Shown one piece after another: positions 48,060 through 57,368 of a DNA stretch of 64,000 bases. Location: assembly GCF_009914755.1 (NCBI RefSeq), contig NC_060933.1; one strand, given 5' to 3'. Below the pieces are notes generated by a model. That model saw only the letters and a list, made by a program, of their open reading frames with translations. It was not told where the DNA came from and ran no database searches. Source of the DNA: the human T2T-CHM13v2.0 reference genome, Homo sapiens. The translations under genes were made by a program, and so were the position numbers. Each line of letters opens with the position of its first letter. The first letter of the stretch is position 1.

Positions 48060-48232
48060 ATGGAGCCGCTGGGTGCAACACTGTCCTGCCCGTGTGCATG
48101 GAGCTGCTTACGTTGCCTGCACTGCTGCTGTCCTGTTCCCACAACTTCTGCAAACAGTGCCTGGAGCTGATCTTGGTTTACCAGAATTGCACCCAGGTCC
48201 AGGGATGGTTCTGTTGTCCAGTGTGTAGGAAA
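48060..48232 (+). pseudogene. TRIM pseudogene exon 1: C3HC4 RING finger
   Basis: gccATGg Kozak; MEPLGATLSC(P, 1-bp deletion at 48090-91)VCMELLTLPALLLSCSHNFCKQCLELILVYQNCTQVQGWFCCPVCRK|gtaaga. Confidence 0.92.
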
Positions 48233-51200
48233 GTAAGAGGAAAATCAGGGCCCTTTGACTCCACGAGGGAGCAGACTTCTTTCTGGTCTGCACTCTTCGA
48301 ACTCTAGCCCATGAGAAAACTGGGGACTTTGGGCCCCAAAATGAAGACCAGCAAGGCAGACCCACATCTCTGAAGGGTTGTGAGAGGGCATCGGCAGGGG
48401 AGGACAGGCTTTTCCTTTAGGCTTAGAAGATCCATCAGGACCCACAGGGAGGAGCTACAGGAGGATGTACATTGTGGCCTAAGGTTGGAGAGAACTTTCT
48501 TACAGAACAGCTTGTTCAGTATGCGCTGGGGTAGGTAGGGCCATTTATTAGCACTTGCTAGGTGCCTTGTCACTGTGGTGGAAGACCAGAGAAGCAGAGC
48601 TGATGAGGGTTCAGATTTCACCCTTTAAGGAGAGATAGACCACACATATAATGGGAGACCCCACAGTGCAGGTCTGCAATGCACCGCAGGGGACAGGAAG
48701 GCCACAGGGGAGGCACTGCTGCATAGAATCTACAGTAGGACTGATGCTGATGGAGAGGGCAATCTAGGAAGAGACAGTGGCAGATAGCAAGGCCCGAGAA
48801 AGAGAGCCTAAGAAAGGAGGTGCTTAAGGGCCTGGCCCAGAGATCACGGAGGCTTGAGCATAAGGTGCTGTGGGAGACACCTGGGGCTTTAGGGTACCCA
48901 CCCGAAGGGTAAGTAGGACATATTCCAGGAGGCCCTACACATCAAGCAAAGGGCTTTGCATTTTATCCTGTAAGCAGAGGGGAGCTAGTGACATATTTTA
49001 ACCTGGAAAGGGTCATCATAACGTTGACTTCTGAAAGCACAATGTCACATGCTCTCATGGAAATTCTTTGTGTAACATTTCGCCAGCTGGACTGTAGGAA
49101 TCATGACTGGTGTTGCCCCAGACCCTTTGGATATTTGTGGAAGGAAGGAAGAAAATCTAGAAGGAATAGGTTGCAGGCAGAGGAATCCTGAGGGGCTGGA
49201 GGGCAGGGAGAGAGGCAGGCGGTCATCACCTGGCTTTTGGGGGAGGGGTGCCATGAGGTGACTGCAGAGACAGGGGCAACAGCTCAGAAGCACCACACAT
49301 TTGGATGGATCATTTTATTTGTCAACCTGGAATTTTCACTTATTTGTATGTTTATTTTTAAATCATATCAAAGAAATAGTGTAGAAAAGAGTTTATAATG
49401 AAAAGCAATGCTGCCATCCCACCCCTAGTCCCACTCTCCAGAGGCAATCTCTCCTAACTTTTTCTACCTCATTCTTCCTGCAGTCACCACCATAGCTCTG
49501 AGTATGTGTTTATCTCACCATTCTTCGCCCACTGGTTTTAGACGCTACTGGCATTTGCTGCCTCTCCGACGACTGAGCTTCTCGTGCACAGCTCCTTCCT
49601 CATCTTCCCTCCCTGAGCAGGTCCATGGCAACCTTAATTTCTCTATTGTGATTTTAAGTTAATGCACCAAGCAACTAGAGATAATGGCACCCTCTGAAGC
49701 TCCACTTTGTAAGGGAGGCGGTCCTTGTCCCCTGCCCTGCTCTCTGGCTTTCCTGCTCCCAGGTGACAGACACACAGGCTCCTCAGACTCCGGGAGCCCA
49801 TAAGGAACCTGCAAAGGGCACAGGAAGTACACTGGAGGTCTTCGCAGAAATTTTGTTGAGCCTGGATTTGGGGGTTGGGCAGGTCATGCAGGTGCGGTCC
49901 CAAGAGGGTTGAGCAGAAGTAGCTGTGCGTCCTCACCCTGACAGAACACAGATGATTGAGCAGAGGGACAGTGCTGGCTGGGATACTGGCTGCACCTGCG
50001 GCCTAGAAGGGCGGGAAAGAGCTTTGGACTGATTGAGTAGAGGCAGAGATTTGAGAAGGGAGGGAGGAAGAGGACTGGTGTGCCCAGCTCTGAAGGCAGA
50101 CCCTCTGGGACATTTTCAGTGCTCTTCAGTTTTCTTTGAAAAGAAAAAAGGCCCAGATCCCAGGCGCAGGCCCATTCATCTTCCCTGGAGTATTCATTCT
50201 GCTGAATCCTGGAAAAGATTTATACACCAGCAGCATTCTGTAGTGAGTGTTATGCTGGAATTCAAACCCAGGTCCACCTCTTTTCAAGACAAGTTCTTTT
50301 CTCATTTCCGAGGCACCAGGGAAAAGAAATCACTTCCCTGCACTGGTTCTGTTGGGGCCAAAAGATCAGGAGATGATTGCCATTGAAAAGGTAGTTTGTT
50401 ACTCAGAGTTCCCAAGAGGAGGGAGCCCCCCACCACGCAGGGCCACATGGGGAAGCCCCAGGGTTGATCAGGAAGCAAAAGGAATGGCAGGGAACTGTGG
50501 TCCAGGGCCTTTGCTGTGGTTTCCACAGGAAGAAATGGGGAGGGGAGGGTAAGCAGGCTAAAGACTGGCTAGTGTGAATCATTTCAGTGGGCTCTGAGGC
50601 ATAGGAGCTGTGCCTTGCTCTCTGGTAATTAGGGCAGATGGACAGTGGCCTGCGTGTGAGAAGGTTGGATGGTTGGGGGTGTGGGATCTGGGTTGGTTGG
50701 TTTGCATCTGAAAAGCACAGTCCCAGGTGAGATCCTTTACTCTGTCTAGGAGTTGGCTAACCCTGGGAGGGCAGGCCCCAGGTGCCAAAACATCAAAATA
50801 CAGAAAATAAAAGACACAGTGAGACCTGGTCCTTCGTTCTCTGCACTCCACTGGCATATCCAACTGTGCAGTCATTGACTGTGAGCATTTCTTACCACTG
50901 GACTGAGTTTCTGTGGAAGACAGAGTAGGTCCTAACCAAAACTCAATGGACTGAAGGAACGCAGATTCCAGTTTCACCTGATGGAGTTTGTAGTGACTTT
51001 CACAACAGATACTGGTAACAGGCCCACAGCAGGGCCAGCCTGGAAGTGTCATCGTGCAGGGTTCTCACAGTCACTTCCCTCTCCAGGTCTTGTCAGCCTT
51101 CCCCAGGGTGGAATGTGAGTTCTTTCCTCCTCCCAGATGGTGTTTTAGTGACCAGAAAGGGACATATTTCAACCTCCCCCAAAGATGAGGTGGCCTTTGG

Positions 51201-51243
51201 CCTCAGGAATTTGCCACAAACTCATGTGATCTCTGTGTTTTAG

Positions 51244-51402
51244 GACATTTATTTGAAGGGCAGGGGAACAAATGGATTGCAGGGAAACATCCTGGCTGAA
51301 AATATCCTGGAAAAGCTTAAGGAAGTACTTGAGACACTTCACACCGGGGAGCAAAACCAGCTCGCTCAGATGTGTGAAAAGCGTGGAAAAATCATGAATC
51401 TG
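51244..51402 (+). pseudogene. TRIM pseudogene exon 2: post-RING linker and start of B-box2
   Basis: tgtgttttag|DIYLKGRGTNGLQGNILAENILEKLKEVLETLHTGEQNQLAQMCEKRGKIMNL|gtatta; 159 bp open; resembles MuRF HGVYGLQRNLLVENII. Confidence 0.88.
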
Positions 51403-51584
51403 GTATTAAATTATACTTTTTAAAATTTTCTTTTTGCCTAGCTGCCCAATCTGTCAAATTACTCGGTAAGCCTACATAGTTGAAACCAGATGTTTACTCA
51501 GGAGTATAGTAGAGGATTACTTTCCAAATCCACAGCCCAATGCTAACTTTATTCTTGATTTGTAACGTGGAGCCCAGGGACGAA

Positions 51585-55510: not shown

Positions 55511-55684
55511 AGGATCCCTTTCTTAGAAGGCAGGAAACTGAGATCCAAGGCTGCCCAGCTAGCAAGAACCAAGATTCTCCTGGGTCTGTGTGGCTTCTTC
55601 ATTGGTGTGCTTTCCCCTACTTTTTGCTGCCCCATCTGGAAAGACCTGATCATGGGGTGATGCTGGTACTGGGTTTTATTTCTT

Positions 55685-55977
55685 TTATTTATTTTTGAGA
55701 GAGGGTCCTGCTGTGTCACCCAGTCTGGAGTGCAGTGGCACAATCACGGCTCACTGCAGCCTTGACCTCCTGGGCTCAAGGGATCCTCCCATCTCAGCCT
55801 CCCGAATAGCTGGGACTGCAGGCATGTACCACCATGCTCAGCTAATTTTTGCATATTTTGCAGAGATGGGGTTGTGCCATGTTGCCCAGGCTGGCCTCAA
55901 ACTCCTGAGCTCAAGCAATCCACCTGCCTTGGGTCTCAAAGTGTTGGGATTACAGGTGTGAGCTGCCGTGCCCAGCT
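55685..55977 (-). mobile_element. AluJ
   Basis: Reverse Alu with J diagnostics. Confidence 0.88.
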
Positions 55978-56720
55978 TGGTGCTGGGCTTTAGGGGTGAA
56001 CTGAAGACCACCAGTTCCGGAGTATGAGATCTTGACTTTTTCTAGAAATATTAGAATGGTTGCATCTGAGACTTCATTTATTTCCCTCTAAATTATTCAG
56101 GTGATTTCTTCCATGTGGCTATTCTTTCAACAATGATCTGCATTTGGCTGTAGCAGAAGTCCATGAGCAGTGGCTTTAAAAAATTAGGGGTTCTATTTTT
56201 TTACTTTAATGAAATGTCCCAAGGTAGGAAGTCAAGGCTGGCTGGCTTGGGATCCGTGATGCTCCAGCCCTTTTTCTCTCAGCCATTTGGTAGGTGCTCT
56301 TGTCAGCACGTAGTCACAGGATGGCTGTCCCATATAGGCATCCTGTCCATGATCCCGGCAAAGGGAAAGGGAAGGGTCAAGACTGGTCCCAGGGGCACAT
56401 GCCCACTTTTAAGCAGCTTCCTAAAAGCCCACCTGACTGGATTCTACTTCTGCTTCCATTGCACACCTGGTTACTCCCAATGTCAAGGGAAGCAGGAAAT
56501 GAATGTAGTATTTTTAGCTGCCCACATTGGTTCCCCCAAAGAATCAGAGTTCTTTGGGTAGAAAAGTGGTGAAAAACGGGTAGTGGGCTGGCAACCAGCA
56601 GTGTCTGCCAGGCCTGGGGCCTCCCTGCCTCAGGGTGGAAGCCCGGGCAGAGCAGAACCTGTGGGCTGGAGGGCCTCCCTGCAGGGCTTGCCTAAGTGTG
56701 TGTTAGTGCTCCCTTGGCAG

Positions 56721-57368
56721 GACACAGAGAGGCTCATCAGACCTGTCCACCAGCACCACCAGCACAAGGACCATGATCAAAACCATCGGAAACTGCCTGA
56801 TCAGCGGCATCCACAGCCGCAGCCACATGGTTACCTCAAAGCAGGAGCTGGAGCATGCCTCCGAGTTGGAGAGGCTGCAGTGGGTGGCCTGGGACCTCGC
56901 AGTCCCCCGCCAGCTCTGCCACCAGATGCTGAGGCTCCTGCAGCAGCACCAGAATGCGATACAGTTTCTGCGAGAAAGGACAAAAAGTTCAGGACGGAGA
57001 TGAAGAGGCTCATGCACGATGGCATGGTCCCCCAGGTCCCTGAAAAGGACAACATGTCTATCAGGCACTAATTTCAAGAGCTCATTAAAGGAATAGATAT
57101 TGCTGACTTGGTCCTGCCTGAGTTAGCCCAGGCGCTGGCCACCGTGGCCAGGCTGCCCGAGGCCTGCAGGATGGGCAGGGCCACGCAGAGCGAACTGTTG
57201 GAACAAACGCTCCAGGAGATTTTATGCAAGTCAGAGTTGGGCTTGCTGCCAAAACCGAACAAAGAGGCAAAGCTTCCTGGGGACCCATGTTATTCCTCCT
57301 CCACTTCCTCCACTGGTGTGTTCTCCACACAAGGAAGTGGGCTTAAGTCTAGGGAATCAACAGCGTAA
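56721..57368 (+). pseudogene. TRIM pseudogene exon 4: coiled coil, COS-like box and tail
   Basis: cccttggcag|DTERLI(fs)DLSTSTTSTRTMIKTIG...LLQQHQNAIQFLRE(fs)DKKFRTEMKRLM...DNMSIRH*FQELIKGIDI...RESTA*. Confidence 0.75.

What the first reader, a model, noticed from the sequence alone, without database searches (positions are those of the whole stretch)
48060..57368. Hidden four-exon MuRF/MID1-related TRIM E3-ligase gene, decayed in human: candidate unitary pseudogene
Seen: exons 48060-48232, 51244-51402, 54005-54175 and 56721-57368 joined by 3011-, 2602- and 2545-bp GT-AG introns, all phase 0, reconstruct ~383 aa. It has a RING with all eight ligands (C-x2-C...C-x-H-x2-C-x2-C...C-x2-C), a linker GTNGLQGNILAENILE, a B-box2 with exact spacing C-x2-(R)-x7-C-x2-D-x4-C-x2-(F)-x5-H-x2-H split across exons 2/3, a coiled coil, and COS-like AIQFLREDKKF...NMSIRH*FQELIKGIDI. 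Established: RING-Bbox2-CC-COS without B-box1, FN3 or SPRY is the class C-II architecture of TRIM54/55/63, and the N-terminus also resembles MID1. Inference: introns exclude a retrocopy, and strong divergence with only four coding exons argues against a recent duplicate, so this is likely an old distinct TRIM gene lost on the human lineage. I cannot check whether it is already annotated.
Basis: partly seen in the sequence, partly recalled or inferred. Interest (0 to 1): 0.92.

Follow-up and report, generated by a model that had tools for sequence, protein, structure and literature searches.

The report
Dead human copy of MuRF-like TRIM gene
This stretch of human chromosome 9 is the broken remnant of a RING-type ubiquitin-ligase gene that is still intact in many other vertebrates, so it records an old gene loss in our lineage and is not a working or hidden gene.

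Summary
The four exons, their GT-AG introns and phase-0 junctions are real. The reading frame holds only after correcting three frameshifts and one TAA stop. The frameshifts are a 1-bp loss in the RING and a -2/+2 pair in exon 4. Two B-box zinc ligands are also replaced (H to R, C to F).

The corrected 383-residue translation aligns end to end with apparently intact proteins of 375-384 aa from goat, armadillo, bilby, platypus, caecilian, reptiles, birds, sharks and non-teleost fishes. It nests among the mammals of that family.

A goat orthologue searched against the whole human genome finds all its parts only here. The next best match is TRIM13 at 43%.

It is not hidden. RefSeq lists it as transcribed pseudogene LOC107987099, although the ancestral last exon (56721-57368) is not in that transcript.

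The family is closest to MuRF (TRIM54/55/63) but forms a separate clade with different intron positions. It is probably not MuRF4/TRIM101. Lesions shared with gorilla, siamang and macaque models suggest loss before apes and Old World monkeys split.

The parts
48060..48232 (+). Coding exon 1: start codon and RING finger. A 1-bp loss in the Pro codon at 48090-48091 puts the ATG and first Cys ligand in one frame and the other seven ligands (from 48092) in another. The annotated transcript starts at 48024.
   Evidence: Pfam RING hits above cut-off on 48026-48232; 74% identity to goat residues 4-60
51244..51402 (+). Coding exon 2 (53 codons, open): post-RING helix with the GLQ(G)N-ILAENILE motif, linker, and first half of B-box2. 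The His ligand is replaced by Arg, and the family-invariant Arg of GLQRN is replaced by Gly.
   Evidence: 79% identity to goat, bilby and armadillo
54005..54175 (+). Coding exon 3 (57 codons, open): second half of B-box2, with a Cys ligand replaced by Phe, and the start of the coiled coil.
   Evidence: Pfam zf-B_box only E 0.16, 12.6 bits against cut-off 24.1; 58-69% identity to orthologues
56721..57368 (+). Ancestral last coding exon: rest of the coiled coil, COS-like region, tail and original stop (57366-57368). Lesions are a -2 shift at about 56742, a +2 shift at 56977-56978, and TAA at 57069-57071 replacing a family-invariant Tyr. It is not part of the RefSeq transcript.
   Evidence: matches goat residues 175-264 and 254-374 at 47-50% identity; hub annotation table
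59278..59345 (+). Terminal exon of the annotated non-coding transcript NR_171889.1. It is spliced to exon 3 in place of the ancestral exon 4 and shows no similarity to the family's proteins.
   Evidence: hub annotation table; AG acceptor at 59277; the human model P0003 ends with the five residues this exon encodes; no orthologue HSP here

Best explanation
The locus is a unitary pseudogene. It is the only human copy, now dead, of a vertebrate-wide four-exon TRIM gene. That gene encodes a protein of about 380 residues with RING, one B-box2, an antiparallel-type coiled coil, a COS-like helix pair and a disordered tail.

In species that keep the gene, the protein is most likely a dimeric RING E3 ubiquitin ligase of the MuRF-like (class C-II) design. 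Its COS-like region would tether it to a cytoskeletal structure. That function is inferred from family membership only.

In human the product cannot be made. A 1-bp loss splits the first zinc site of the RING. Two B-box zinc ligands are replaced. Two frameshifts scramble 78 codons of the coiled coil, and a stop truncates the COS-like region. What survives is a promoter and three spliceable exons, transcribed as non-coding RNA ending in a different last exon.

Part of the damage is shared with gorilla, siamang and macaque gene models, so the loss predates the ape/Old World monkey split. The family is the nearest relative of the MuRF group but is a separate lineage, and is probably not MuRF4/TRIM101.
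For: Lesions are read directly from the sequence. The corrected translation is collinear over its full length with the orthologues: 233 of 372 compared positions (62.6%) match goat, 59.7% armadillo and 60.3% bilby.

Human departs from 10 of 38 columns that are invariant in 22 family members, against 0-6 (mostly 0-2) in leave-one-out controls.

Orthologues: 71 of 76 hits to the bilby protein have E <= 1e-24. They span sharks to placentals, many at 355-391 aa with Pfam RING and B-box domains.

No human parent: goat residues 4-374 are found only at the four window exons among 81 genome matches.

Careful tree of 40 rows: family plus human is one clade at 100/100, human+goat 98/85, with armadillo 100/99, mammals 99/97. 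The MuRF clade is separate at 100/99.

Nearest kin is MuRF. Profile search gives MuRF-like representatives 160-177 bits, MID about 132 and TRIM13 121. hhalign against MuRF gives probability 100, E 6e-40, 291 columns running through the COS-like part. The nearest language-model clusters are TRIM55/54/63.

Fold: the AlphaFold model shows RING, B-box, a helix at 138-244, then helices at 248-267 and 282-289. Foldseek hits are TRIM72, TRIM21 and KAP1.

Shared lesions: siamang, gorilla and macaque models are collinear with the human shifted frames. All five primate models carry the R and F ligand replacements.
Against: Synteny of the orthologues (next to PTPDC1 and the let-7a-1 cluster) could not be checked, so orthology rests on reciprocal best match and tree position.

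The orthologues are automatic gene predictions. One is flagged low quality and several are partial. None is shown to be expressed.

No named TRIM101 sequence could be obtained, so the separation from MuRF4 is indirect.

The COS-like region does not reach the Pfam COS model. MuRF-like representatives do not reach it either, so this is uninformative.

Primate dating rests on predicted proteins, not on their DNA.

Human exons 2 and 3 remain open, and the locus is transcribed according to RefSeq. An RNA-level role or a short peptide is not excluded.
Confidence: 0.8

Rival explanations
1. It is the human relic of MuRF4/TRIM101, the already described fourth MuRF. The family would then be known, and only its survival in some placentals and birds would be new.
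For: The family is MuRF-like. A review says MuRF4 is found in vertebrates 'excluding avian and placental mammals' (PMC7013991, passage). That pattern could arise from the sparse 2014 genome sampling. In my hits, birds are mostly non-model orders and placentals exclude human.
Against: TRIM101 was named in zebrafish (PMC3137616 and PMC5795982, passages). Neither the bilby query (76 hits) nor the smelt query (28 hits) returned any zebrafish protein or any 'trim101' name. Teleost members came only from smelt and salmonids.

Fish trim101 sits with commd7 and nkain4 on the crh2 paralogon (PMC9353778, passages), not with PTPDC1.

One paper reports a transmembrane domain in teleost TRIM101 (PMC10048487, passage). 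In 22 of 22 family members the most hydrophobic window is inside the RING.

The family lies outside the MuRF clade and shares none of the first four MuRF intron positions.
Confidence: 0.15
2. It is a duplicated (non-unitary) pseudogene copied from a living human TRIM gene such as TRIM54, TRIM55, TRIM63, TRIM13 or MID1/2.
For: RefSeq's name is 'TRIM54-like'. The N-terminal 159 residues are 43% identical to TRIM13 and 39-46% to MID1/2.
Against: No human locus matches the C-terminal half (goat residues 175-374) except this one. Identity to orthologues (47-79% per exon) far exceeds that to any human paralogue. Intron positions differ from MuRF genes. The human sequence nests inside the mammalian branch of a family that reaches sharks.
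Confidence: 0.02
3. The locus still has a function in human. It could act as a regulatory non-coding RNA, or through a short protein started at the internal Met after the exon-1 frameshift (the 160-aa model).
For: RefSeq classes it as transcribed (hub table). Exons 1-3 keep consensus splice sites, and exons 2-3 stay open. A 160-aa human model exists. A type 2 diabetes GWAS lists this locus name beside a lead SNP (PMC6063971, table passage).
Against: The 160-aa product would lack the first zinc-ligand pair of the RING, two B-box ligands, the coiled coil and the COS-like part. Human departs from 10 of 38 invariant columns. Its end branch is about twice that of goat or armadillo, 0.41 against 0.20 and 0.22, as expected under relaxed constraint. 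A GWAS nearest-gene label is not evidence of function.
Confidence: 0.05

Closest known systems
MuRF family (TRIM63/MuRF1, TRIM55/MuRF2, TRIM54/MuRF3), TRIM class C-II
   Same: Same domain order: RING, a post-RING helix with a GLQRN-x-L-x-ENI core, one B-box2, a long coiled coil, then a COS-like helix pair. There is no B-box1, FN3 or SPRY. MuRF gives the best profile, hhalign and language-model matches of any known group.
   Different: It is a separate clade (100/100 against 100/99), with only 26% identity over 291 aligned columns. The RING loop is shorter. Introns fall at family residues 58/59, 111/112 and 168/169. In human TRIM55/54/63 they fall in the RING loop, before the B-box, after the B-box and in the coiled coil, and none coincides. 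The rest of the protein is in one exon. Mammalian tails end in E-S-T-V. Human has no working copy.
MuRF4 / TRIM101 (Macqueen et al. 2014, FEBS Lett; seen only as reference entries and in citing passages)
   Same: Both are MuRF-like TRIMs without a human functional gene, and both are reported absent from human (PMC7013991).
   Different: No zebrafish member of this family was found. TRIM101 has different reported neighbours (PMC9353778) and a reported transmembrane domain that is absent here (PMC10048487). This family has bird and placental members. No direct sequence comparison was possible.
MID1/MID2 (TRIM18/TRIM1), class C-I
   Same: The RING and B-box2 are 39-46% identical. hhalign gives probability 99.75 over 160 columns.
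   Different: MID proteins have B-box1, a Pfam-detectable COS, FN3 and SPRY. The family has none of these by Pfam. The alignment skips B-box1 and stops early in the coiled coil.
TRIM13 / TRIM59, class C-XI
   Same: TRIM13 is the best single non-locus match in the human genome, at 43% over residues 1-159. Some orthologues are auto-named 'TRIM13-like'.
   Different: Both have a single coding exon, seen as open frames of 409 and 405 aa, and a C-terminal hydrophobic segment (TRIM13-like control). The family has four coding exons and no such segment. TRIM13 also has the lower profile score, 121 bits.

Membership tests
TRIM / RBCC proteins | N-terminal C3HC4 RING finger | tested here: met
   Human exon-1 RING frame: zf-RING_UBOX 32.3 bits (cut-off 25.2) and zf-C3HC4 22.7 (cut-off 21). 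All 5 orthologues scanned pass. In human the first ligand is cut off by a frameshift.
TRIM / RBCC proteins | B-box2 zinc finger following the RING | tested here: met
   Orthologues score zf-B_box 27-38 bits against cut-off 24.1, in 5 of 5 scanned. The human remnant is sub-threshold (12.6 bits), with His to Arg and Cys to Phe at ligand positions.
TRIM / RBCC proteins | Long coiled coil after the B-box, with overall RBCC fold | tested here: met
   The AlphaFold model of the bilby orthologue has a helix at 138-244 with pLDDT mostly 82-97. Foldseek top hits are TRIM72, TRIM21, KAP1/TRIM28 and the TRIM5 B-box-coiled coil, with 28 hits at E <= 0.001.
TRIM class C-II (MuRF-type architecture) | COS box after the coiled coil and nothing else (no B-box1, FN3, SPRY or TM) | tested here: inconclusive
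   hhalign aligns the family through the MuRF COS region (291 columns), and the model has two helices there. Pfam COS is not matched by the family, nor by the 4 MuRF-like representatives scanned. The other C-terminal domains are absent.
MuRF clade (TRIM54/55/63) | Falls inside the MuRF clade in a tree | tested here: not met
   The family is one clade at 100/100 and MuRF-like sequences another at 100/99. The quick tree of 60 rows agrees, at 97 and 98.
MuRF clade (TRIM54/55/63) | Shared gene structure (intron positions) | tested here: not met
   Exon ends of human TRIM55/54/63 map to family positions of about 41, 88, 146 and 186. The family's introns are at 58/59, 111/112 and 168/169.
MuRF clade (TRIM54/55/63) | Striated-muscle-specific expression and sarcomere binding | not testable with these tools
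   No expression data for any orthologue were available.
MuRF4 / TRIM101 | Has the zebrafish trim101 gene as a member | tested here: inconclusive
   No zebrafish or 'trim101'-named protein appears among 76 and 28 hits. The word-based search can miss relatives, and no TRIM101 sequence was available for direct comparison.
MuRF4 / TRIM101 | Reported distribution and neighbourhood: absent from birds and placentals, beside commd7/nkain4 | tested here: not met
   The family has many bird and placental members. The human relic lies beside PTPDC1 on chr9 (hub table).
Unitary pseudogene | Disabling lesions in the only copy | tested here: met
   Three frameshifts, one stop and two lost zinc ligands. No other human locus covers the protein.
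Unitary pseudogene | Intact orthologues in other species | tested here: met
   Full-length models without breaks exist, for example goat 375 aa, bilby 384 aa, armadillo 378 aa, caecilian 384 aa and catshark 391 aa. They are predictions only.
Unitary pseudogene | Orthologues in the syntenic position | not testable with these tools
   No vertebrate genome other than the window's own could be read.
Processed pseudogene (retrocopy) | Intronless copy of an mRNA | tested here: not met
   Three GT-AG introns of 2.5-3.0 kb lie at phase-0 positions.

The most novel reading that the evidence does not exclude
This is the human fossil of a fifth, so far unnamed MuRF-like TRIM lineage, distinct from MuRF1-3 and from MuRF4/TRIM101. 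The lineage has its own intron pattern and predates the split of sharks and bony vertebrates. It appears intact in ruminants, cetaceans, armadillo, marsupials, monotremes, many birds, reptiles and sharks. It was inactivated in catarrhine primates more than about 25 million years ago, and perhaps independently in other mammals and most teleosts. If so, the 'complete' lists of vertebrate MuRF-type ligases and of human unitary gene losses each lack an entry.
Probability: 0.6. Interest if true: 0.45.

Novelty: new member of a known kind. Interest (0 to 1): 0.35.

Why it matters
For human annotation, the locus should be labelled a unitary pseudogene, not 'TRIM54-like'. Its true last exon (56721-57368) and its lesions can also be recorded.

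For TRIM biology, it points to a conserved MuRF-like ligase with no human or (as far as seen) zebrafish copy. Work in those two models would therefore miss it. Cattle, goat, marsupials, Anolis or sharks would be the places to ask what it does.

For gene-loss studies, it gives a datable loss in the primate stem lineage. In absolute terms this is a modest result: human unitary pseudogenes and TRIM gains and losses are common.

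Tried and rejected
1. The PDB sequence search with exon 2 returned only 3 designed helical proteins, which are chance matches.

2. Exon 2 searched against the human genome found only itself, so single exons are too short to reach paralogues.

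3. Pfam COS was not matched by the family. I did not read this as absence of a COS box, because the 4 MuRF-like representatives scanned miss it too.

4. The PDB sequence search with the bilby protein ranked generic TRIM RINGs and B-boxes first (TRIM21, TRIM72). MID and MuRF B-boxes scored only E 2e-7 to 2e-4. This did not discriminate.

5. Two Atlas look-ups meant to put a 'TRIM101' name on a MuRF-clade representative gave only TRIM54/55/63 names.

6. Literature. Macqueen 2014 is not held. Searches for 'tripartite motif-containing protein 54-like' and for PTPDC1+TRIM54 each found 0 papers. 'TRIM54-like' found 1 paper, about a zebrafish gene. 'MuRF5' found only trypanosome genes among the 10 of 31 papers listed. 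'Unitary pseudogene'+TRIM found 3 irrelevant papers. I therefore found no printed description of this family or of its loss in the held library.

7. Rfam scan of the whole window: 0 matches.

The supplements of PMC3137616 and PMC9353778 may list trim101 identifiers and positions that bear on the MuRF4 question.

9. The relations among this family, MuRF, MID and two unnamed invertebrate-like groups stayed unresolved. I make no claim about a sister group from the trees.

Full report
WHAT IS IN THE SEQUENCE

The exons are 48060-48232, 51244-51402, 54005-54175 and 56721-57368. They are separated by introns of 3011, 2602 and 2545 bp with GT donors and AG acceptors after pyrimidine-rich tracts. Exons 2 and 3 are open frames of 53 and 57 codons.

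Exon 1 read from its ATG gives nonsense and a stop. The RING is in another frame. Comparison with orthologues shows one base missing from the proline codon between the first two cysteine ligands, at 48090-48091.

Exon 4 opens in phase 0 with seven homologous codons. It then loses two bases at about 56742, which moves the homologous reading to the +1 frame for 78 codons. It regains the original frame through a 2-bp insertion at 56977-56978. A TAA at 57069-57071 replaces a tyrosine that is invariant in the family. The exon ends at the ancestral stop, 57366-57368.

In the B-box the spacing is exact, but a histidine ligand is arginine and a cysteine ligand is phenylalanine. With X at the breaks, the translation has 383 positions.

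IS IT MORE THAN CHANCE?

The RING frame of exon 1 passes two Pfam gathering thresholds. The B-box half in exon 3 does not (E 0.16), and the other pieces have no family. The decisive evidence comes from relatives.

Exon 2 alone retrieved 12 proteins at E <= 0.01 out of 50 candidates. Five were aberrant primate models (human, gorilla, siamang, macaque, colobus). Six came from other mammals at 79-81% identity, and one was an unnamed fragment at 76%.

The 384-aa bilby protein then retrieved 76 proteins. Of these, 71 had E <= 1e-24. They came from platypus, armadillo, ruminants, cetaceans, camel, mole, shrew, bat, dugong, caecilian, axolotl, turtles, squamates, alligator, many birds, sharks and rays, gar and bichir. 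The remaining 5 were TRIM39/35-like at about 1e-12. A smelt member added sturgeon, bowfin and salmonids.

An alignment of 22 members has 51% mean column identity. All RING and B-box ligands are invariant in it. Three orthologues aligned to the window by tblastn each give five collinear matches on the four exons and nothing else below E 0.8. No further coding exon therefore lies in the window.

UNITARY OR DUPLICATED?

The goat protein was searched against the whole T2T human genome and gave 81 matches at E <= 0.01. Its residues 4-374 are covered only by the four window exons, at 74, 79, 66, 47 and 50% identity. The next best place is the single-exon TRIM13 gene on chr13 (43% over residues 1-159). 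After that come TRIM59, class-IV TRIMs, MID1 and MID2. TRIM54, TRIM55 and TRIM63 exons reach only E 1.6e-5 to 4e-3.

Nothing else in the genome matches the C-terminal half. There is thus no parent gene and no second copy. The introns exclude a retrocopy.

In a careful maximum-likelihood tree (40 rows, 340 columns), the human translation groups with goat (98/85), then armadillo (100/99). It lies inside mammals (99/97) and tetrapods (99/99). The family as a whole is one clade at 100/100, and its branching broadly follows the species tree. A quick tree of 60 rows agrees.

Human departs from 10 of 38 family-invariant columns and 7 of 43 near-invariant ones. Each real member, left out in turn, departs from 0-6. 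Its terminal branch is about twice as long as those of goat and armadillo.

Synteny in other species could not be examined with the tools at hand. That is the main gap.

WHEN WAS IT LOST?

The siamang model runs collinear with human exon 4 in frame 0 across both shift sites. It has tyrosine where human has TAA. The gorilla model follows the human +1 frame to the same premature stop. The macaque model enters exon 4 in the same +1 frame, and then shows further shifts of its own in exon 3 and later in exon 4. All five primate models carry the Arg and Phe ligand replacements. The Gly in the GLQRN motif is seen only in the three ape models (human, gorilla, siamang).

I infer that inactivation predates the ape/Old World monkey split, and that the TAA arose later. 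This rests on predicted proteins, not on the DNA of those species.

WHAT FAMILY IS IT?

The orthologues have RING and B-box2 by Pfam, and no B-box1, FN3, SPRY or transmembrane segment. An AlphaFold model of the bilby protein has mean pLDDT 73 and pTM 0.35. It shows the RING, a helix at 74-98, the B-box, one long helix at 138-244, two shorter helices at 248-267 and 282-289, and a low-confidence tail from 295. Foldseek matches it to TRIM72, TRIM21, KAP1 and TRIM5.

A profile of the family was searched against 1.84 billion representatives. It scores its own members at E < 1e-79. Next come several long multi-domain proteins of unknown origin. After those, the best-scoring proteins I could put a name to are ones I identified as MuRF-like, from their 80-98% identity to human TRIM54/55/63 exons (160-177 bits). 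MID-like proteins reach about 132 bits and a TRIM13-like protein 121 bits.

Profile-profile comparison with a MuRF alignment gives probability 100, E 6e-40 and 291 aligned columns. These run from the RING through the region where MuRFs carry their COS box. Comparison with MID covers only 160 columns. Language-model neighbours are TRIM55, TRIM54 and TRIM63 clusters.

The architecture is therefore MuRF-like (class C-II, a label I recall from Short and Cox 2006). The family is nevertheless not inside the MuRF clade. Its introns fall after the RING, inside the B-box and early in the coiled coil. None coincides with the human TRIM55/54/63 introns, which lie in the RING loop, before the B-box, after the B-box and further into the coiled coil.

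IS IT MuRF4/TRIM101?

Probably not, but this is not proven. The primary paper is not held. Citing passages give the following:
- MuRF4 = Trim101, studied in zebrafish (PMC5795982).
- It is a paralogue of TRIM54/55/63 (PMC8805411).
- It is found in vertebrates 'excluding avian and placental mammals' (PMC7013991).
- It lies on the crh2 paralogon beside commd7 and nkain4 (PMC9353778).
- In teleosts it carries a transmembrane domain (PMC10048487).

The present family has bird and placental members and no zebrafish member in two searches. It has no hydrophobic C-terminal segment. Its human relic sits beside PTPDC1. I put the chance that it is MuRF4 after all at about 15%.

HOW IT WORKS

In species with an intact gene, I infer a dimeric RING E3 ligase whose COS-like region tethers it to a cytoskeletal structure, by analogy with MuRF and MID proteins. 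This is inference only; nothing here tests activity, partners or tissue.

In human no such protein can be made. RefSeq records a transcript that joins exons 1-3 to an unrelated terminal exon at 59278-59345 and skips the ancestral exon 4 (hub table).

NOVELTY AND SCORE

The locus is already annotated as a transcribed pseudogene, and its relatives carry automatic names: TRIM54-like, MID1-like, TRIM13-like and TRIM63-like. I found no paper that describes the family, its separateness from MuRF1-4 or its loss in primates. The three papers that mention LOC107987099 were found. I read a passage in only one, where it is a nearest-gene label for a diabetes SNP.

This is a sound and somewhat useful annotation result, a new member of a known kind.

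Noticed in passing
window 56742 and 56977-56978: The two exon-4 frameshifts are -2 and +2, so they cancel. Frame 0 stays open across the whole 78-codon shifted stretch in human (until the TAA at 57069) and in the siamang model, whose predicted protein reads straight through.
   Followed up: partly
window 57357-57368; alignment A1 last block: Mammalian and caecilian family members end in E-S/A-T-V or a similar motif, which resembles a class I PDZ-binding C-terminus (recalled motif class). Human ends E-S-T-A. A conserved Cys-Lys-containing patch also sits in the otherwise low-confidence tail.
   Followed up: no
G000:C13:49232566-49233009 (L003/L028): TRIM13 is the best non-locus match in the human genome to the goat orthologue: 43% over residues 1-159, in a single open frame of 409 aa. 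It scores ahead of any MuRF exon only because its coding sequence is unsplit.
   Followed up: partly
searches hit lists: The phyletic pattern is patchy. Among teleosts only smelt and salmonids appear, among amphibians only caecilian and axolotl, and among birds no chicken-like or songbird entries. No rodent, carnivore, horse or elephant appears. This suggests repeated losses, but absence from a capped, word-based hit list is weak evidence.
   Followed up: no
representatives P0092, P0094, P0096, P0098, P0101, P0103: Several unnamed proteins score better against the family profile (190-247 bits) than MuRFs do. Some are very long with 3-6 repeated RING/B-box stretches. Two of them (P0101, P0103) did not join the family in the trees. 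Their origin is unknown; they are possibly invertebrate TRIM expansions.
   Followed up: partly
window 48024-59345 (LOC107987099): A type 2 diabetes GWAS table lists lead SNP rs10114341 with the label 'LOC107987099 (PTPDC1)' (PMC6063971, passage only). RefSeq also marks enhancer elements flanking exon 3 at 53922-54091 and 54228-54397 (hub table).
   Followed up: no
window 49480-49620 and 45622-45663: The macaque gene model's first 61 residues align to intron 1 and to upstream sequence of the human window, not to exon 1. The macaque prediction therefore uses different 5' exons.
   Followed up: no
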